A stretch of 63,187 nt of DNA, the filler included, from Licmophora abbreviata (Eukaryota): the NCBI GenBank assembly GCA_900291995.1. It is 4 parts of 4 records of this genome, joined end to end, with 100 filler letters (N's around TTAATTAATTAA, not from the genome) between each part and the next. Parts side by side here need not be neighbours in the genome. Positions count along the whole stretch, not along the records: positions 24,475 to 46,789 come from OLMU01000295.1; 3 more parts are not named here. One strand, given 5' to 3'. A model generated the notes under the pieces. It worked only from the letters and a program-made list of their open reading frames with translations. It searched no databases and was not told the origin of the DNA. This document shows, in pieces, positions 39,799 to 47,717 of this stretch. Made by a program: the position numbers and the translations under genes. How positions within the stretch are numbered: the first letter of the stretch is position 1; each line of letters begins with the position of its first letter.

Positions 39799-41319
39799 TT
39801 AGCTTTCATCCTTGTCGTCTACAAGTACCTCACTTTGTCCCATATCCGTCTTCACGTTCCGACCTGTCGCCTCAGAAAGACTGATCTCGTACAGCATCCG
39901 TTCGAGCTTCTCGACACTTCGGCGAAGCGCGTCCATTTTCTTCCCAATGTTTCCTGGCAAGCGTATCATTGACTGTAGGGCGTTCATGATGGATCCATTG
40001 GTAGACAAGCATAGCTTGACACCGTCCGTGTCTCGAGCTGTTCCTCGCTGAACGGCGTATCGACCAACCTCACCAGTGAGATCGCACAATCCACCAAGAT
40101 ACTCGGCGTGCTCCAAAGGAATCGCCATAAAGTCCTCTGGCAAGAGCAATTCACCGCTGGGCGATTCCATCCTATCCTCTTTTCCATACAGCCATGCGTA
40201 AAACATCTTCGCCTCGGCGTACTCCTCCAGCACGTTGCTGAAACTGCCCATCCGGAGCGGAGGTTCTTCCTGGACTATCGGCCACAAGTCTTTCGTGATG
40301 CACGTCTCGCATTGCTGAATAAGCTGAATCGCTTTCTCTCGATCACCTCGATGCAACGCGAAGATGGACTGCTTGGCTGCTTTTTGTCCGTCGCGACACT
40401 TTTTGATGAGCGTTTCGCGCAGCTCCTCACGATGCTCCATGCGCTCTCGCAACGCCAACAGCTCCTGCTTGGGAAGGAGGCCTTCCAAACGCAATCGCTT
40501 CATATCTGGCTCTTGGCCTTCTTCACTTTCCAGTTCCAGCTGACTTCCCGTTACACTAAGTTCGTACAGCAACGTTTCGAGTGACTTCAGCGCATATTTC
40601 GTTCCATCATACTTGCGTCTCAGAGGTCCATTGCGAAAGTCGAATTGCAGCAGTTCATTCATGATTTCTTGGACTAAATCACGTGCCATTGCCACACTTG
40701 TAACGTCTCGGTCTGTCGCACGTCCCATGCCGTAGTGCGCCAAATCCGCCGCGACGCCCATGCACGCGCCTCCCAAGTACTCTTCGTCGGTCGCAAACGG
40801 ACAGTCCGACGGGGACAACAAACGGCCAGTCTGCAAAAAGTAATCGTAGGCTACCAATCGAACATAGTCTTCTGATCTACTAGATAAGTTCGCTTCGCGC
40901 GGCTTTCGGTCGGCCTCGGCGGGGAGAGAAGCTTGAATCAATTGAGCGAGCTCGCCTATGGCTGCGTTGGCCACCGTCTCGTCGTCGTTGGCCACAGAGG
41001 AACGTGCTTTGATCGCTGCAGTCTGGAGTTTCCGAGAAAGGTCATAGGCATCCTGACGAGTCTGTTCAGCCTGCACGACGTCTTCACTGAATGTTGCCAA
41101 GTCCAAGTCCACCGAGCGGTGGTACTTCAAGGGACGACTGGGTAATATCATGCTGTTGCTTGTCATCATGCGAGCCGTGGAGATGGCACTTGTAGAAGTA
41201 GGAGTATCTGATCCAGTCGAAAGGAAGAATGCTATCTTTGCTAACGAATTACGCCGAGTACTTCGAGGAACTAGTGCAGCAGTCGAAATCAATCGAGCAG
41301 CAATCACACAGCGGTGCAT
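39799..41319 (-). CDS. Translin-TRAX fusion protein (two tandem translin-family domains)
   Basis: Domain 1 NGPLRRKYDGTKY...LLYELS (translin-like); domain 2 RETLIKKCRD, IFALHR, EEYAEA, YLGGLCDLTGE (TRAX-like). Confidence 0.85.
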   Translation of the reverse strand: MHRCVIAARLISTAALVPRSTRRNSLAKIAFFLSTGSDTPTSTSAISTARMMTSNSMILPSRPLKYHRSVDLDLATFSEDVVQAEQTRQDAYDLSRKLQTAAIKARSSVANDDETVANAAIGELAQLIQASLPAEADRKPREANLSSRSEDYVRLVAYDYFLQTGRLLSPSDCPFATDEEYLGGACMGVAADLAHYGMGRATDRDVTSVAMARDLVQEIMNELLQFDFRNGPLRRKYDGTKYALKSLETLLYELSVTGSQLELESEEGQEPDMKRLRLEGLLPKQELLALRERMEHREELRETLIKKCRDGQKAAKQSIFALHRGDREKAIQLIQQCETCITKDLWPIVQEEPPLRMGSFSNVLEEYAEAKMFYAWLYGKEDRMESPSGELLLPEDFMAIPLEHAEYLGGLCDLTGEVGRYAVQRGTARDTDGVKLCLSTNGSIMNALQSMIRLPGNIGKKMDALRRSVEKLERMLYEISLSEATGRNVKTDMGQSEVLVDDKDES

Positions 41320-41656
41320 GCTGCTGTATCGTCTCGTCGCGATTTATGTGGCCGTCATCATGGCGATCTTTTGATCTTTTCCGATCTTTCGAAAGCATGA
41401 TGAGTCGAAAGAGTCAAAGATCCAACACTACGCATCCTACGTGAAATGCGACGTAGAAACTCCCATCCGACAAGTGAAATGAAAGATTTTCAATACTGAA
41501 ATCTACGTTGGGTACGCCCGTAGGAAACGGCGGGAAGTTCTTTGATGTGAGAAAGATGAGAGTAGGTCTGTTCACAAATCGAAATTGGCAATGCAATCAA
41601 CCATGTGACAGCCTGAATCCACTGTTCTCCCTCTATCTCCTTCGTTCTCCGCTAAA

Positions 41657-42301
41657 ATGAGCGACTTCCAATCGGATTGCGTCGTACAGAATACCATGTA
41701 CTGGTGGTATTCCAAATTCGCGGTGCCAAAGCTGTTCCGATACGCCGACGAAGGCCATTGGGATCGAATTCCGAAACGATGCAAGACTCGTCCAAGGGAA
41801 GCTCGCTTTGTTCACCGCTACGTCCCCGGTGACACAGCACTCCATCGTCTCGTGAGAGCGCCCAGGTGCGGTGTGAACGTCATGAGTGATCTGTACGTTC
41901 GTGAGGGGATCAGGCGGATGCGACTGCGCGCTATCGAAGCGCTACTACGAGCAAATCCAAAGTTGGCATCGTCAACTGACAGCTTTGGTCGTACTCCTCT
42001 CCATGTGGCATGTATGGATACGTCGTTTTCGAGCGGCGCAGTGGAACTTCTCTTGACTGTATGTCCATCGACTGCGAGCGTCCAGGACGTCCAGGGAAAG
42101 ACGCCGCTTCATGTCTTGCTAGAATGCGAGAACAGTGTTTCTGTGCCGCCGGCACTCTTGATGCGTTATGTAAGTCTGTGTCCCCAAGTCGTCAAGCTTA
42201 CCGACGCAAATGGAAAGACTCCACTTGAAATCGCTCAAGAGAATGGAAACGCATATTTTTTGAAGGTGCTAAAGCAAGGCGGTTCCATGTTGGCGACTTG
42301 A
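41657..42301 (+). CDS. Short ankyrin-repeat protein (paralogue A)
   Basis: GDTALH, GRTPLHVAC, GKTPLH, GKTPLE. Confidence 0.82.
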   Translation: MSDFQSDCVVQNTMYWWYSKFAVPKLFRYADEGHWDRIPKRCKTRPREARFVHRYVPGDTALHRLVRAPRCGVNVMSDLYVREGIRRMRLRAIEALLRANPKLASSTDSFGRTPLHVACMDTSFSSGAVELLLTVCPSTASVQDVQGKTPLHVLLECENSVSVPPALLMRYVSLCPQVVKLTDANGKTPLEIAQENGNAYFLKVLKQGGSMLAT

Positions 42302-42985
42302 TGGAGATTGGCGATTCTCGTCAGGCTTGACAATACGACCGCGGCACAGATGACTCTGTATGGGAGTATTGAAACAAGAAAGTCGTCTCTGTTTTCTGGC
42401 TATAATTGGATTCGCCAATGTAAGGAGTGAAGTGGGTGAAGCTGATGTCCAGCATACCGGTAGCAATACTACGACGTATCTAGAGCAATGACACCTCTTC
42501 AGCCACCTGTGCCACTTGCATGTAGTTCGGGAAGAATCGGATGGCCTGCGACGGGGTTATGATAATGCCTTGCCTCGTATCCGTCTTTCATTCGCGATTG
42601 ATGGTCATATCGGTGGCAGGCCATACCTGTATTCACATCATCAACTAGCCAGCAACATCACATACCCTATGCGGGTCGGCACCGCCATCATTGTGATGGA
42701 CAAACCAACATCGCATACAAAAACACTGCGCGTATCTTTTGCCGCTACCAACTTTAGTCGTGTGCTTGGGTGAACTTTTCCTTGCCCTCGTTGTGGTTCA
42801 CAACTCACCCCCGGAAGGGGACAAGTTTGACCGAGACATTCACCTATAGAGCGCCCATAAACAGCAAGGTATGCGGCAAGAGGGCGGTGTAGGAGGCCAA
42901 GACTGAAACGCTGTTATAAGTGGCCCAATATATGTAACAGCCAACATAGTAGCGTCTAACGACCAACAACGCACCGCCGCTCATC

Positions 42986-45900
42986 ATGCTCGTCTCTCTA
43001 ACCCTGAAAAATCCAGAAGGACCAAGAATGAAGAGAATCGCATCTTACAGCAACGAGACTCTCTCGTCCCGTCTCTTCTCTCCTGAAAACTCGAATGCTC
43101 ACGGCGGGGATACGCAGAGTCTGGCAAGCGTTAAAGGGCGGGTCTCGTTTGATGAACAGACTCACAGCACATGCGGCACTTCGCGCTGCACCTCGAGCGA
43201 TCATGCCACCTTACCCCCGAATAGATCGAGTTATCAGGGTACTCCTCCTCGACTCCCCCCTGGTGATGAAGACGATAATATGAGCGCTGGAGGCCACATT
43301 GCTGGTGCCGAGGCGATGCCATCCTTGCGTCGCCCGAACTCAGCTCGCCGCCTGAGAATCTTGAGATCTCTCGGTGACGACAGCAGCTGCATCGGCGATG
43401 ATCGAAGTGTAGCGACTCTACAGACCACATCAACAGCATTGTCATTCGACGATCGATATGAGGTTCCCCAGGATTTGCTCATGTTCTTCCAAGCAAGCCC
43501 TTTGGTCTACACCGATACTAGCCACCGCCTACACGCTGTCGAGCAGATAGACTTCGACACTGAGCGAGATACACTAAAGGAGGCAATTGAAGATGCTCCA
43601 GGCCACCAGCGGATTGCGATTGCATTTGAAACAGCAACAGCTGAACTCCTTGGTCGATTTTTGGCCAAGGGCGAAGGTCGAGTTCTGCATTTCTCCTGTC
43701 ATGGTCATTCAAAGTATCTCTTCGTCGAGGACGGTTGGGCGCACGCCCAACCTCTCTTTGGCCACGACCTGCAGAGTTGGATCCAGATGGGTGGTGCGAG
43801 ATTAGAGCTTGTCTTCGTATCGGCGTGTTACTCGCGAACAGTTGGTGAGGCTTTCATAGGGGCGGGAGTCCCTCATGTTGTCTGCTGTCAAAAAGATAGT
43901 CAGCGACTCCATAACGTGGCAGCTGTCGAGTTCGAAAAGGCATTCTACCATGCACTCGCATGCGGTCGGCGCCTTCAACGGGCCTTCGATCTAGCTTGTG
44001 AATCTATCAAGCATTCTCCGCTCATTCCATGGGAAGAGAGACGAGAAGAGGTCAAGAAGTTTACTCTGCTTCCGGAGGGGGCGAACCACGACGTGGATGT
44101 ATTCTTCACGCAGCCCTTGCCCCCCAGATCGACATTTCTGATGAAGCGACCTCCGATTTACCTTGATTTCCCTCCACCGCCTTCTATCTTTATCGGCCGA
44201 GAAGTGGAAATGTATCGTGTTATTGATAGTTTGAAGCACTGTCGCCTTGTGCGCATTGCAGGTCCCGCTGGCGTTGGAACGAACTCTCTCGTCAAGGCAT
44301 GCTGCCGATACATCAGCGTGCGGTGTCACATCTTCCAGTTCACTGAGATTCTTTGGGTGCCAACAAAACACGCGACTGAGCTGTCTACGTGCTTTGCTGA
44401 GCTCTTTGCAGCCTGTCGCGATGAACATGACAGGTCAGGCCTCTTGCTCCCATTCCAAGAAGTTGAAGACTGCACACTCAAAATTGTGAATCACTTTCGA
44501 TCTCGAAAATGCAAATCTTTGCTTGTACTAGATGCCAAGAGGATTGTACTGGCCAGCGGGATGCAAAAACTTGCGTACTTCATTGAGACCTTACTGAAAG
44601 CTACGAAGGGCGTGAAGATACTCGTTCTGCATCGGCCTGGTACGAACATTGCTGGTGCCAAAATGCCTTGTGCGGAAAGTAACATCGAAGTCCCCCCGCT
44701 CGACTTCAAGAATACAGCGGCCCTGTTTGGTCGCTTGTGCCAGCATGTCAAGAATCGCGTGTATTCTACTTTAGGCACAGCGAGCGAGCTATCCCAGCTT
44801 TTGGTTGGAAGTCATGCTGAAGTTGCTCCTGGGGAGCGGATGTCAAAGCGGTTGGCTGACACATACGCAAAGATCGGCAACGGAATTCCAGAGCTTATTA
44901 TGGGGAGGGCAAAGAAAATAAGCAAGGACGAGTTTCGAAGATTAATCGAAACCGCATGTCGTGCGGAGCCGCACCTTCCGACTATCGACAGTAGAGCTGC
45001 TCTAGAAAAGAAATTTCGAGAGCTTAGCGAGGAGATTGCTCGAGCGTGCACAGATCGTCATTTCGAACGAGCGCAAGAGTTTCAAGAAAGTCTCGACGAA
45101 CTGGAGCTCCTTCGAACCGAGTTTCCGGATCTCAGACAGCTGATGACGATGGCTCGCGACGTACGAGCTGACCAGGAGTTTGCTATACAGTCGAAAGACT
45201 TCATGGTGGCAAATGAGCTGCAAAAGGAGCTGACAAGCTTGGAGCTCAAGATCCGGACTGAACGGGACGTGATGCTCGCATATGGCTTGGATCCTATCGA
45301 AGTTGTGAGCAGAGAACGCGATGATACCAAAACAGACGTGGAAGAACGGAGAGAAACAAGGGCGTCCTTGTCGGCAAGCGTTCGCTTGATGGAGGAACAG
45401 TTGGCCCAAGCATGTGATGCCGATAACTATGACAAAGCGAGAGAGGTTGACGCCCAGATCTCCAATCTAAAACGGCAACTTCTGTCCATGCCGGACTGTG
45501 AAACCCTAGCGAACAGAGTTTTTGAAATGAAGACGGAACTGAAACAATTGAAGTACGATAGACGTTGGGACGAAGCCGAAGCACTCCATACGGAGATAAC
45601 GAGGACCGAAAGCATTCTTGCGACGGAGCGCAAGATGGAAGCCGAACTACAAATCAAGGACGAGCAACGAAACGACCCACCTGGCTCGTACGGTACCATT
45701 GAAGGCATTGAAGAGGATTGGGAGCCAGAATCGCGTGTCAGAGGGAGTTTGGACGATCAACAAATGTTACGTTTGCCCCTTCCAAGACGTTCACGGCCGG
45801 CGACGAGCGAAGAGTTCAACGATGACAATTACACAAGAAAGACGCAAATCACTGTCAACGCTAGTCCTGGAGCAACACAACGACAGCCTGGAGCTGTCGC

Positions 45901-46543
45901 GATTTCCGGGTGCAATGCTAGCTTGGACGACGCAGCTAGCTTCTCTTCTGTTGGCGATGCGGCCGATGGCAGCCTTCCAGTTGCGGAACTAGTGAAGACT
46001 TCTCTCGAGGAGCAAGAAGCTTTGTCGCAGAGCATCCAAGATGATGTAGCAAGGCGCGCTCCAGTCCGCCGCATAGGCTCGGCTTCGAATCATTACACAC
46101 TAGCAATGATATCGGGTGCGACGGAAGCTTCAAACGCGGAACCGAGTGACTTGCTCGTTGCCGACAGCACATTAGGGTCGATTTCTCGTCTTTCCCTCGA
46201 ACCCGAATTGGAAGACAATCCGAGAGCAGCAACGGCTTGTACAAGAGGAGAAATAGACACCCAGCAGGCGGCCCCCGGCTACCTTCCAGAGGACCAGGTT
46301 GTGTCGACGCCCGCTCAGGGTACTAGCTTTCCACGCCGAGCCCACGAAGAACCGAACAGAACCGAAGAAAGCGAAGACGATCGTGTTGCTCGCCTAGTGG
46401 AAGAAGCGATGGATGAACGACTTTCCCGCATGCTTGTTTCCGCCGAATCAGTTGAGGTAGAAGGTCCGACAGCCCCGACGAAGAATGGCAGACTTCGAGA
46501 ACTCCTGAAAAGACCATTTTTTCGCAAACGAAGTAAGAAGTGA
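42986..46543 (+). CDS. CHAT (caspase-like) protease domain, degenerate STAND/NB-ARC module, UVR-like coiled-coil repeats and disordered tail
   Basis: FQASPL, VLHFSCHG, LVFVSACYS, AGVPHVV, FY.AL; FIGRE, GPAGVGTNS, LLVLD, VPPLD...LF, GNGIPELI; four A...[FYW]..A..L repeats. Confidence 0.8.
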   Translation: MLVSLTLKNPEGPRMKRIASYSNETLSSRLFSPENSNAHGGDTQSLASVKGRVSFDEQTHSTCGTSRCTSSDHATLPPNRSSYQGTPPRLPPGDEDDNMSAGGHIAGAEAMPSLRRPNSARRLRILRSLGDDSSCIGDDRSVATLQTTSTALSFDDRYEVPQDLLMFFQASPLVYTDTSHRLHAVEQIDFDTERDTLKEAIEDAPGHQRIAIAFETATAELLGRFLAKGEGRVLHFSCHGHSKYLFVEDGWAHAQPLFGHDLQSWIQMGGARLELVFVSACYSRTVGEAFIGAGVPHVVCCQKDSQRLHNVAAVEFEKAFYHALACGRRLQRAFDLACESIKHSPLIPWEERREEVKKFTLLPEGANHDVDVFFTQPLPPRSTFLMKRPPIYLDFPPPPSIFIGREVEMYRVIDSLKHCRLVRIAGPAGVGTNSLVKACCRYISVRCHIFQFTEILWVPTKHATELSTCFAELFAACRDEHDRSGLLLPFQEVEDCTLKIVNHFRSRKCKSLLVLDAKRIVLASGMQKLAYFIETLLKATKGVKILVLHRPGTNIAGAKMPCAESNIEVPPLDFKNTAALFGRLCQHVKNRVYSTLGTASELSQLLVGSHAEVAPGERMSKRLADTYAKIGNGIPELIMGRAKKISKDEFRRLIETACRAEPHLPTIDSRAALEKKFRELSEEIARACTDRHFERAQEFQESLDELELLRTEFPDLRQLMTMARDVRADQEFAIQSKDFMVANELQKELTSLELKIRTERDVMLAYGLDPIEVVSRERDDTKTDVEERRETRASLSASVRLMEEQLAQACDADNYDKAREVDAQISNLKRQLLSMPDCETLANRVFEMKTELKQLKYDRRWDEAEALHTEITRTESILATERKMEAELQIKDEQRNDPPGSYGTIEGIEEDWEPESRVRGSLDDQQMLRLPLPRRSRPATSEEFNDDNYTRKTQITVNASPGATQRQPGAVAISGCNASLDDAASFSSVGDAADGSLPVAELVKTSLEEQEALSQSIQDDVARRAPVRRIGSASNHYTLAMISGATEASNAEPSDLLVADSTLGSISRLSLEPELEDNPRAATACTRGEIDTQQAAPGYLPEDQVVSTPAQGTSFPRRAHEEPNRTEESEDDRVARLVEEAMDERLSRMLVSAESVEVEGPTAPTKNGRLRELLKRPFFRKRSKK

Positions 46544-46789: not shown

Positions 46790-46889
46790 NNNNNNNNNNN
46801 NNNNNNNNNNNNNNNNNNNNNNNNNNNNNNNNNTTAATTAATTAANNNNNNNNNNNNNNNNNNNNNNNNNNNNNNNNNNNNNNNNNNNN
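46790..46889. other. Artificial assembly spacer (N44-TTAATTAATTAA-N44)
   Basis: Identical 100-bp linker. Confidence 0.97.
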
Positions 46890-47066: not shown

Positions 47067-47717
47067 ATGGCAGGACCTGAGAATAATTGCTGCGTTCGAG
47101 AGCAGATAAAATTTGCCCTGTACAAGAAGTTTCGCGAGCCACGCCTTTATTCATTCGCCTCCAAAGGTGAATGGGAGCAGATTCCTCAACGCTGCAAGAC
47201 AAATCCGAGAGAAGCCAAGTTCATTCATCACTACCCTCCTTCAGATACTGCCCTCCACCAGATACTGCGTTTCCCTCGCCTCGATGGGGGAGCGTTCGAC
47301 TGCGAAACCTCACAAGAACTCCAGTTGCTCAAGGTGGACGCGATATGTGCTCTCTTGGAGGCCAATCGGAATGCAGCGTCCACCGTCGACTCGCTGGGTC
47401 GTTCGCCGTTGCATCTGGCCTGTATGGATATTTGTAGCTCCGAAGTGGTGGCTGTTGCACGTGTCGTGGAAGCATGGCCTCGGGCCTGTGCACTGCAGGA
47501 CTTGGAAGGAAGGACCCCACTTCACTATCTCGTGGCGCGAAACGATGACATCCCGATATCCTTTCTCGTCAGGATTGTGAAAGAACACCCAGAAGCGGTG
47601 AACATGACAGATATGGTTGGCGAAACGCCGATTCAGATTCTCGAGTCGCGTGGTGGAGAAGTGAACAGCGTAGGGTCGGTGATGCATGTGCTCAAGACGG
47701 GGGAAGCGCCGACTTAG
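47067..47717 (+). CDS. Short ankyrin-repeat protein (paralogue B of 41657-42301)
   Basis: SDTALH, GRSPLHLAC, GRTPLH, GETP; N-terminus clearly homologous to paralogue A. Confidence 0.82.
   Translation: MAGPENNCCVREQIKFALYKKFREPRLYSFASKGEWEQIPQRCKTNPREAKFIHHYPPSDTALHQILRFPRLDGGAFDCETSQELQLLKVDAICALLEANRNAASTVDSLGRSPLHLACMDICSSEVVAVARVVEAWPRACALQDLEGRTPLHYLVARNDDIPISFLVRIVKEHPEAVNMTDMVGETPIQILESRGGEVNSVGSVMHVLKTGEAPT

What the first reader, a model, noticed from the sequence alone, without database searches (positions are those of the whole stretch)
42986..46543. NLR-like CHAT protease-STAND-UVR-repeat gene, a candidate immune or cell-death switch
Seen in sequence: an intact caspase-family His/Cys dyad context (HFSCHG about 43688-43705; SACYS about 43820-43834). 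It is followed by the ordered STAND landmarks FIGRE, Walker A-like GPAGVGTNS (44261-44287), Walker B LLVLD (about 44520), VKILVLHR, VPPLD...LF and GNGIPELI (GxP). Four UVR-like helical repeats follow (about 45000-45640). Established knowledge: effector-STAND-sensor is the layout of NLRs and bacterial Avs proteins, and CHAT proteases activate death effectors in bacterial defence. Inference: an intronless protease-NLR with coiled-coil repeats in place of TPR/LRR/WD40 is an unusual architecture for an alga.
Basis: partly seen in the sequence, partly recalled or inferred. Interest (0 to 1): 0.75.

Follow-up and report, generated by a model that had tools for sequence, protein, structure and literature searches.

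The report
Diatom protease with disarmed NLR switch
This algal gene joins an intact caspase-type protease to a cut-down, probably non-catalytic version of the nucleotide switch used by immune receptors, and it belongs to a large uncharacterised family that could supply triggers for regulated proteolysis or cell death in diatoms.

Summary
One 1185-aa frame encodes a CHAT protease whose His239/Cys281 align with the SAVED-CHAT catalytic dyad (Z 24.5), an Apaf-1-like NBD+HD1 (Z 12.8), four UVR-like hairpins and a basic C-terminus. Two features were missed. The Walker A Lys is Thr (Lys/Ser-Thr in 32 of 32 prokaryote-clade relatives) and Walker B lacks its second acid. No winged-helix domain follows GxP, so a defining STAND/NLR feature is not met. 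The gene belongs to a large stramenopile family (named members: Platysulcus, Triparma, Phaeothamnion, diatoms; 3 genes in this genome). Its nearest prokaryotic kin are complete CHAT-STAND-TPR proteins of Chloroflexota, Methanothrix and others. Family members swap LRR/ARM, kinase, macro, WWE, SPRY and IQ modules, and one clade has lost the dyad instead. Best reading: an auto-inhibited protease on a nucleotide-uncoupled scaffold, activated by partner-driven clustering. An immune or death role is inferred, not shown. CHAT-NLRs are known in fungi and bacteria; ten searches found no description in diatoms. This scan noted the same family on two other genomes. Verdict: new variant of a known kind.

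The parts
42986..46543 (+). Single-frame gene, 1185 aa: low-complexity N-terminus, CHAT, STAND-derived NBD+HD1, four UVR-like hairpins, disordered tail, basic C-terminus. The true start is uncertain (Met at 1, 15, 99, 111).
42986..43459 (+). Low-complexity N-terminal region, residues 1-158; poorly conserved (12% identity to the closest relative)
43460..44110 (+). CHAT (caspase-fold) cysteine protease domain, residues 159-375; the most conserved domain (74% to P0002)
   Evidence: Pfam CHAT E 2.7e-9; SAVED-CHAT 8TL0 Z 24.5, rmsd 2.4, 194 aligned
43700..43702 (+). Catalytic His239 (His-Gly), aligned with SAVED-CHAT H375
   Evidence: alignment (chain numbering offset of 20 inferred); H375/C422 from 10.1101/2023.06.23.546230
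43826..43828 (+). Catalytic Cys281 (SAC), aligned with SAVED-CHAT C422
   Evidence: dyad intact in 124 of 149 rows
44171..44710 (+). STAND-type nucleotide-binding domain, residues 396-575, with FIGRE, degenerate Walker A and B, and PLD
   Evidence: nSTAND1 E 4.4e-5 on the domain alone; model pLDDT 92.5; Apaf-1 Z 12.8, rmsd 4.6, 206 aligned
44261..44287 (+). Walker A GPAGVGTNS; Lys replaced by Thr432 (44279-44281) and Ser/Thr by Asn433; the Lys loss is shared by a 4-member clade
44519..44542 (+). Walker B LLVLDAKR, first Asp kept, second acid lost (prokaryote-clade rows all read D-x-x-E/D)
44711..44971 (+). Helical domain 1 with GxP (GIP, 44882-44890); followed directly by the repeats, with no winged-helix domain
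44990..45271 (+). UVR-like hairpins 1 and 2 (residues 669-762), 72% identical to P0002
45356..45637 (+). UVR-like hairpins 3 and 4 (residues 791-884)
45638..46405 (+). Predicted-disordered tail with a recurring PGAVA motif (about 45887-45904)
   Evidence: FoldIndex negative; motif in 18 of 158 proteins
46406..46540 (+). C-terminal helix plus basic-hydrophobic end (LLKRPFFRKRSKK); candidate membrane-binding or nuclear-targeting element
   Evidence: at least 8 K/R in the last 30 aa in 12 of 15 PGA-motif expansion members versus 7 of 77 others, 1 of 47 non-expansion and 0 of 32 prokaryote-clade rows

Best explanation
The protein is a regulated, probably auto-inhibited CHAT cysteine protease in a stress, defence or death cascade. 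SHOWN: caspase fold with the dyad in place; a STAND-derived NBD+HD1 lacking the P-loop Lys, the second Walker B acid and the winged helix; two pairs of UVR-like hairpins; a clade-conserved basic C-terminus. INFERRED: (1) the NBD+HD1 no longer hydrolyses or swaps nucleotide and serves as a lock and scaffold; (2) activation comes from clustering or release, as in SAVED-CHAT, driven by a partner binding the UVR hairpins, possibly another family member with its own sensor; (3) the basic tail places the protein at a membrane or in the nucleus; (4) the active enzyme cuts one or a few targets, probably after a basic residue (acidic Asp189, Glu193 and Glu248 are conserved; the Arg/Lys preference of separase-type enzymes is recalled); (5) the cascade serves defence or cell death, as in the prokaryotic kin and fungal CHAT-NLRs.
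For: Dyad aligned with SAVED-CHAT H375/C422. CHAT is the most conserved domain against P0002: 74% versus 58% NBD and 51% HD1. The Lys loss is fixed in a clade (P0001, P0002, P0003 and the own-genome paralog; FastTree 1.0; SH-aLRT 100 for the three rows included), so it is not a sequencing error. NTPase motifs decay stepwise while the dyad stays: prokaryote clade K[ST] 32 of 32 and D..[ED] 32 of 32; non-expansion eukaryotes Arg at the Lys position in 32 of 48; expansion clade D..[ED] 12 of 93. The model is confident (pLDDT 89.5, pTM 0.78). SAVED-CHAT is activated by oligomerisation and cuts a specific second protease (passages). Fungal NLRs carrying CHAT are linked to gasdermin control (PMC10197012 passages). 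Both named Chloroflexota relatives scanned carry EAD7. Family flanks include LRR, ARM, SPRY, macro, WWE and kinase. A degenerate-Walker bacterial Avs (KpAvs8) is noted in a figure legend of PMC13581612.
Against: No activity, substrate, expression or partner was shown. No effector gene lies beside the gene: the neighbours are ankyrin-type genes, translin and others. The 13 prokaryotic loci share no neighbour across unrelated taxa. PADLOC and NCBIfam give no hit. Only 3 genes were found in this genome (a lower bound), not the large expansion expected of pathogen receptors. Flanks such as IQ, PDZ, SH2 and LanC-like fit general signalling as well as defence. The family profile is partly circular for UVR (34 training rows).
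Confidence: 0.45

Rival explanations
1. It is an active, regulated protease used in ordinary cell signalling or development (cell-cycle, sexual or frustule-related processing, calcium or phospho-signalling), with the bacterial immune ancestry only historical.
For: Low copy number here (3 genes). An ARM-LRR-CHAT-STAND orthologue is kept from Platysulcus to diatoms with a dyad in 48 of 48 non-expansion rows. Flanks include IQ, PDZ, kinase and SH2. CHAT is structurally close to separase (5FBY Z 12.8) and the DdvA anti-sigma factor (8RW5 Z 14.6). The prokaryotic kin sit among housekeeping genes, and their NBD is next related to AfsR/SARP regulators.
Against: Rapid module swapping, macro/WWE/SPRY/LRR flanks and parallel loss of either the dyad or the P-loop are more typical of conflict systems (inference). 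EAD7 occurs on prokaryotic kin.
Confidence: 0.3
2. It is a classical NLR: the UVR repeats sense a pathogen molecule, the STAND domain swaps ADP for ATP and forms a wheel that activates CHAT.
For: Effector-NBD-repeat order; best structural matches of the domain are Apaf-1, MalT, CED-4 and a plant resistosome NLR (Z 12.8-11.9, tied); conserved GR(E) (Arg405 in 173 of 182) and GxP.
Against: Walker A Lys and the second Walker B acid are lost. There is no winged helix: the model has no strand after residue 568, the Apaf-1 match stops at residue 347, and a profile of the prokaryotic post-HD1 domain hits 0 of 141 eukaryote-clade rows against 13 of 14 held-out prokaryote-clade rows. The repeats are short coiled hairpins, conserved rather than hypervariable (72% for pair 1).
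Confidence: 0.13
3. It is a catalytically silent scaffold or a decaying paralogue; the dyad persists without use.
For: The family tolerates inactivation: 25 of 149 rows lack the dyad, 18 of 21 in one LRR-macro clade, and the query's NTPase motifs are already lost.
Against: The frame is intact over 1185 codons, CHAT is the best-conserved domain, and the dyad is kept in all clade members with the region present.
Confidence: 0.12

Closest known systems
Prokaryotic CHAT-STAND-TPR proteins (uncharacterised; GTDB loci in Anaerolineae and other Chloroflexota, Methanothrix/Methanotrichaceae, Thermoanaerobaculia, Holophagales, Desulfobacteraceae)
   Same: Closest non-algal sequence relatives over CHAT+NBD+HD1 (P0134 E 9e-46 to the query core); same domain order and dyad.
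   Different: They keep GKT, LDNCE, a roughly 90-aa post-HD1 domain (putative winged helix, fold not modelled) and C-terminal TPRs; some add EAD7. The query has none of these.
SAVED-CHAT of Haliangium ochraceum (PDB 8TL0; 10.1101/2023.06.23.546230)
   Same: Closest solved CHAT (Z 24.5, rmsd 2.4, 22% identity); dyad aligned.
   Different: Sensor is SAVED for cA3 with no NTPase, and its substrate gene is in the same operon. The query has no SAVED domain and no linked substrate.
Fungal NLRs with a CHAT effector that activate gasdermins (PMC10197012)
   Same: CHAT joined to a STAND-type NTPase in a eukaryote (passages).
   Different: Those have repeat sensors (ANK/TPR/WD40) and clustered gasdermin genes. 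The query has UVR-like hairpins, dead Walker motifs, no winged helix and no adjacent gasdermin hit among the scanned neighbours.
Apaf-1 / CED-4 / plant NB-ARC (AP-ATPase clade of STAND)
   Same: NBD+HD1 fold; the alignment covers Apaf-1 108-347.
   Different: No winged helix or HD2, no P-loop Lys, and the protease is fused rather than recruited through CARD.
Ectocarpus NB-ARC-TPR candidate receptors (PMC3341825)
   Same: NB-ARC-type proteins proposed as stramenopile pathogen receptors (abstract and passages).
   Different: That paper has no occurrence of CHAT or caspase; TPR sensors with exon shuffling, unlike this single-frame gene.
Diatom metacaspases, e.g. PtMCA-IIIc (PMC8455989)
   Same: His/Cys caspase-fold proteases in diatoms linked to cell fate (passages).
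   Different: Stand-alone, calcium- and redox-controlled enzymes with no NTPase-derived or repeat modules; a different branch of the fold.

Membership tests
CHAT (caspase HetF associated with TPRs) protease | Pfam PF12770 score above the curated cut-off | tested here: met
   37.3 bits versus 24, E 2.7e-9
CHAT (caspase HetF associated with TPRs) protease | Caspase-haemoglobinase fold | tested here: met
   8TL0 Z 24.5, rmsd 2.4, 194 aligned; gingipain Z 15.5; caspases about 12.8
CHAT (caspase HetF associated with TPRs) protease | Catalytic His-Gly and Cys at the dyad positions | tested here: met
   His239 and Cys281 align with SAVED-CHAT H375/C422
CHAT (caspase HetF associated with TPRs) protease | Proteolytic activity | not testable with these tools
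   needs an assay
STAND NTPase / NLR | AAA+-type P-loop domain followed by a helical domain with GxP | tested here: met
   Apaf-1 Z 12.8, rmsd 4.6, 206 aligned; MalT 12.3, CED-4 11.9 tied; Cdc6 11.6 and other AAA+ at 11.0 are close behind; GxP at 633-635
STAND NTPase / NLR | Walker A GxxxxGK[ST] | tested here: not met
   GPAGVGTN; K[ST] in 32 of 32 prokaryote-clade rows
STAND NTPase / NLR | Walker B hhhhD plus a second acid | tested here: not met
   LLVLDAKR; D..[ED] in 32 of 32 prokaryote-clade rows
STAND NTPase / NLR | Winged-helix domain after HD1 (definition read in passages of 10.1101/2022.07.19.500537) | tested here: not met
   Model has only helices after residue 568, and the repeats start 34 residues after GxP; the prokaryotic post-HD1 profile hits 0 of 141 eukaryote-clade rows; 31 of 40 non-expansion rows end within 60 aa of GxP, and the own-genome paralogue has a stop 22 aa after it
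STAND NTPase / NLR | C-terminal superstructure-forming sensor repeats (LRR/TPR/WD40/ANK) | tested here: not met
   No such Pfam hit at E up to 1; four short helical hairpins instead
STAND NTPase / NLR | Ligand-induced oligomerisation | not testable with these tools
   needs biochemistry or a structure
NACHT versus NB-ARC versus nSTAND1 subclade | Profile score above the cut-off for one subclade | tested here: inconclusive
   Query is below all cut-offs; relatives hit NACHT, NB-ARC and nSTAND1 at similar scores; next sequence kin are AfsR/SARP-type
UVR (UvrB/UvrC) motif | PF02151 score above cut-off; two-helix hairpin of about 36 aa | tested here: inconclusive
   Query repeat 3 E 0.027, below cut-off; the other three give no hit alone; hairpins in the model; family profile matches the ClpC middle domain; P0019 and P0021 pass the cut-off
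Avs / bNACHT anti-phage systems | PADLOC profile match | tested here: not met
   0 families at E up to 1; a 2023 prokaryotic library, so weak evidence for a eukaryotic protein

The most novel reading that the evidence does not exclude
Stramenopiles hold an old, prokaryote-derived family of winged-helix-less NLR-like proteases that diatoms expanded into a network with divided labour. Sensor members (ARM/LRR, macro, WWE or SPRY; in one clade protease-dead) recruit executor members such as this one (protease intact, NTPase dead, basic tail) through UVR-hairpin contacts. This would be the missing initiator layer for diatom innate immunity and programmed cell death, working without the ADP/ATP and winged-helix switch of all described NLRs.
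Probability: 0.25. Interest if true: 0.88.

Novelty: new variant of a known kind. Interest (0 to 1): 0.62.

Why it matters
PMC8455989 states that the genes that regulate and execute programmed cell death in diatoms are unknown (passages), although such death is linked to bloom demise. This family gives concrete, testable candidates: a caspase-fold protease already wired to a receptor-type module, present from Platysulcus to diatoms. For NLR biology it shows a lineage that dropped the winged helix and then, in parallel clades, either the P-loop or the protease dyad. That allows a direct test of whether an NLR-type module can control an effector without a nucleotide switch. If the role proves to be housekeeping, it is still an undescribed eukaryotic CHAT protease family with close prokaryotic kin.

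Tried and rejected
NCBIfam, PADLOC and single-sequence PDB searches: no hits. Self-association job on two copies of CHAT+STAND: no verdict, score 0.00, alignment not used; no evidence either way. RNA runs: no RNA holder listed; no evidence either way. ESM Atlas on the repeat region: no usable hit. Shorter homologues of residues 660-1185: none among 8000 scored candidates. GTDB scan with the single protein P0134: 26 pattern matches, none confirmed; the alignment-based scan worked. A conserved substrate gene next to the prokaryotic relatives: none across unrelated taxa in 13 loci. Naming the prokaryotic post-HD1 domain a winged helix by sequence search: no informative Pfam or PDB hit and only 2 of 64 AfsR-like proteins hit, so that label rests on position and recalled STAND layout. 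The careful IQ-TREE search did not finish, so the quick tree was used; there is no root and no one-clade test, so the direction of transfer is not shown. Rejected: sequencing error at the Walker A Lys (shared by a clade); transmembrane receptor (best 19-residue hydropathy 1.16); bacterial contaminant (nested among named diatom proteins, with eukaryotic neighbours such as translin). Literature: ten searches listed no paper describing this family in diatoms or stramenopiles. Term searches of two diatom infection preprints found no NLR, NB-ARC or NACHT, and 7 supplementary files of PMC13581612 had no CHAT or stramenopile term. The library lacks most subscription papers, and bioRxiv supplements were not seen.
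Full report
OBSERVATION. The + strand carries one open frame, 42953-46543, with the first ATG at 42986 and 1185 residues. Pfam CHAT matches residues 208-335 above its cut-off (E 2.7e-9). nSTAND1 and AAA_16 match 401-546 below theirs. NCBIfam, PADLOC and a single-sequence PDB search gave nothing. The window lies on contig C295 of a 29 Mb, 7734-contig eukaryotic assembly. Named relatives inside the query's wider clade are diatoms (Grammatophora, Extubocellulus, Pseudictyota; that these genera are diatoms is recalled), so the host is most likely a diatom.

PROTEASE DOMAIN. An AlphaFold2 model of residues 159-905 from a 45-row alignment has pLDDT 89.5 and pTM 0.78. Its first domain matches SAVED-CHAT (8TL0) at Z 24.5, rmsd 2.4 over 194 residues, well above gingipain (15.5) and caspases (about 12.8). 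In the profile alignment His239 and Cys281 fall on the SAVED-CHAT His and Cys that the preprint names H375 and C422 (passages; the offset of 20 is my inference from the chain range). The dyad is intact in 124 of 149 aligned rows with both positions (P0144, which has two cores, was dropped). CHAT is the best-conserved domain against the closest relative: 74%, versus 58% for the NBD, 51% for HD1, 72% and 50% for the two repeat pairs and 12% for the N-terminus. Acidic residues Asp189, Glu193 and Glu248 are conserved (Asp in 141, Glu in 177 and Glu in 174 of 181 rows). That hints at cleavage after Arg or Lys, by recalled analogy with separase and metacaspases; it was not tested.

NTPASE-LIKE DOMAIN. 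Modelled alone (pLDDT 92.5) and compared with 48,161 chains, its top matches are Apaf-1 (Z 12.8, rmsd 4.6, 206 aligned), MalT, CED-4, a plant resistosome NLR and Avs5, tied within one Z unit, with Cdc6 and other AAA+ proteins close behind. The Apaf-1 match spans 108-347, which by my recall of Apaf-1 boundaries is NBD plus HD1 only. Three departures matter. First, Walker A reads GPAGVGTN: 113 of 155 rows have Lys there, 31 Arg and 3 Thr. The Lys loss is shared by P0002, P0003 and the own-genome paralogue, which form one clade (FastTree 1.0; SH-aLRT 100 for three rows). Second, Walker B (LLVLDAKR) lacks the second acid. Third, no winged helix follows GxP. The model has no strand after residue 568. 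A profile of the domain that follows HD1 in prokaryotic relatives hits 13 of 14 held-out prokaryote-clade rows and 0 of 141 eukaryote-clade rows. Of 40 non-expansion eukaryotic rows with the GxP Pro, 31 end within 60 residues of it; some may be cut by contig ends, but the own-genome gene on C2146 has a true stop 22 residues after it. The bNACHT preprint states that the winged helix is what unifies STAND modules (passages), so strict membership fails on this point while the ancestry is clear.

REPEATS AND TAIL. Residues 669-884 form four two-helix hairpins in two pairs. Alone, only repeat 3 hits Pfam UVR, weakly (E 0.027). The family profile matches the ClpC middle region (stretch E 7e-4; that this region is a UVR motif is recalled), two relatives pass the UVR cut-off, and per-repeat HMMs cross-hit other query repeats. 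A UVR-pair profile hits 64 of 92 expansion-clade proteins (34 rows trained it), 2 of 47 other eukaryotic rows and 0 of 32 prokaryote-clade rows. The tail is predicted disordered by a crude index and ends in a basic-hydrophobic segment found in 12 of 15 expansion members with a PGA motif, against 7 of 77 without. There is no transmembrane segment.

FAMILY. The CHAT+STAND core finds 3573 representatives at E up to 0.001 and 260 at E up to 1e-30; the best 150 were retrieved. Pfam scans covered 14 first hits, 81 of 103 further full-coverage proteins and 15 selected others. They show N-terminal LRR, ARM, SPRY, SAM, kinase, IQ or PDZ and C-terminal macro, WWE, LanC-like, ARM, SH2 or DUF6824 modules. 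Named members include Platysulcus tardus, Triparma and Phaeothamnion; most rows carry no name. One transcriptome member is labelled as the ciliate Tiarina; it nests among diatom-type rows and may come from prey. This genome holds three genes (lower bound): the query, a close paralogue split over contigs C3026 and C3027 (151-bp overlap, 98.7%; dyad intact, Walker A also Thr) and an LRR-CHAT-STAND gene on C2146.

ORIGIN. Among the hits are complete CHAT-STAND-TPR proteins with GKT and LDNCE. A GTDB scan gave 14 matches in 13 loci: three Methanotrichaceae, six Chloroflexota-group, and one each of Thermoanaerobaculia, Holophagales, Desulfobacteraceae and Nitrospinota (the last partial, 26%). Two named Chloroflexota proteins carry EAD7. 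Their neighbours are not conserved across taxa. In trees of 182 rows (FastTree) and 72 of those rows (IQ-TREE quick) the stramenopile-type rows group together (SH-aLRT 94; FastTree support only 0.16 with Platysulcus, 0.90 without). The UVR-bearing expansion is a long-stemmed clade (SH-aLRT 100; FastTree 0.75 for its widest node) nested inside the ARM/LRR-type lineage. My prokaryote labels rest on TPR architecture for most rows, and seven bridging rows are of unknown origin. NTPase motifs decay along this nesting while the dyad is kept: 32 of 32, 48 of 48 and 69 of 93 rows (one of the 24 misses lacks the region). One LRR-macro clade has instead lost the dyad in 18 of 21 rows. Gain from prokaryotes followed by loss of winged helix and TPR is the simplest account, but the tree is unrooted and the direction is not shown.

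MECHANISM. Most likely (0.45) this is an auto-inhibited protease whose STAND remnant is a nucleotide-uncoupled lock, switched on by partner-driven clustering through the UVR hairpins and acting in a stress, defence or death cascade. The precedent is SAVED-CHAT, which oligomerises and cuts a second protease (passages), and a degenerate-Walker Avs is noted in a figure legend of PMC13581612. The rivals are a non-immune signalling protease (0.30), a classical ATP-switched NLR (0.13) and a silent scaffold (0.12). Nothing here shows activity, substrate, partner or expression, and the low copy number and lack of a linked effector count against an immune reading.

WHAT IS KNOWN. CHAT joined to a STAND NTPase is described in fungal NLRs (PMC10197012, passages) and in filamentous bacteria (10.1101/2020.01.06.895854, passages); bacterial Apaf-1 orthologues with caspase-like effectors are described in PMC13581612 (passages; supplements searched for six terms). 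PMC8195603 names nSTAND1 (passages). PMC3341825 describes brown-algal NB-ARC genes without the terms CHAT or caspase. PMC8455989 says diatom death regulators are unknown (passages). Ten searches (listings only for papers not named here) found no account of this family. Two earlier notes of this scan describe the same family on other genomes; they are unchecked AI notes, agree with my reading and did not shape it.

VERDICT. It works like a protease-bearing NLR in layout and ancestry but is not a strict STAND/NLR member. New variant of a known kind; interest 0.62.

Noticed in passing
window 41657-42301 (+) and 47067-47717 (+): Two paralogous ankyrin-repeat genes (39% identity, E 2e-51) flank the CHAT gene. 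The second lies beyond an N gap with a TTAATTAATTAA spacer at about 46790-46889, where contig C295 ends, so the adjacency may be an assembly join.
   Followed up: partly
L005:5065-6144 and L006:19-2745 (G000 C3026/C3027): Close paralogue split over two contigs with a 151-bp overlap; dyad intact, Walker A Lys also replaced by Thr, one UVR pair, a Cys-rich stretch and the same basic C-terminus.
   Followed up: partly
L007:4596-8000 (-) (G000 C2146): LRR-CHAT-STAND gene of the older type, Arg at the Walker A Lys position, ending 22 residues after GxP; a candidate sensor-type partner.
   Followed up: partly
proteins P0013, P0014, P0047, P0052, P0101, P0105 and clade: LRR-CHAT-STAND-UVR proteins, several with a C-terminal macro domain, in which 18 of 21 rows have lost the His/Cys dyad but mostly keep the P-loop Lys: the mirror image of the query.
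   Followed up: partly
16 of 139 eukaryote-clade proteins, e.g. P0005, P0013, P0014: A recurring Cys-rich motif (G[LV]CxxC ... KGxC) with no Pfam hit in the scans run; possibly a small zinc-binding module.
   Followed up: no
proteins P0010, P0011, P0012, P0015: A subfamily that replaces the UVR repeats with a conserved, unannotated C-terminal domain, ending in a hydrophobic stretch in three of the four.
   Followed up: no
L013-L015, L017, L018, L022-L024: Stand-alone CHAT-STAND-TPR genes in Methanotrichaceae and Chloroflexota, inserted among housekeeping genes; some carry N-terminal EAD7. Uncharacterised prokaryotic protease-NLR candidates.
   Followed up: partly
protein P0144: Two CHAT-STAND cores in tandem in one 1190-aa protein; left out of the counts.
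   Followed up: no
proteins P0211, P0213, P0214, P0126, P0145: Related CHAT-STAND cores joined to SPRY, SAM or SH2 domains in unnamed sources, suggesting the family reaches other eukaryotic groups.
   Followed up: no
window 39799-41343 (-): Translin-family gene with two matched stretches in one roughly 505-aa product.
   Followed up: no
L006:3175-4434 (+): Gene just downstream of the paralogue with Cys and His motifs that by recall resemble a ZUP1/UfSP-type cysteine peptidase; not scanned.
   Followed up: no
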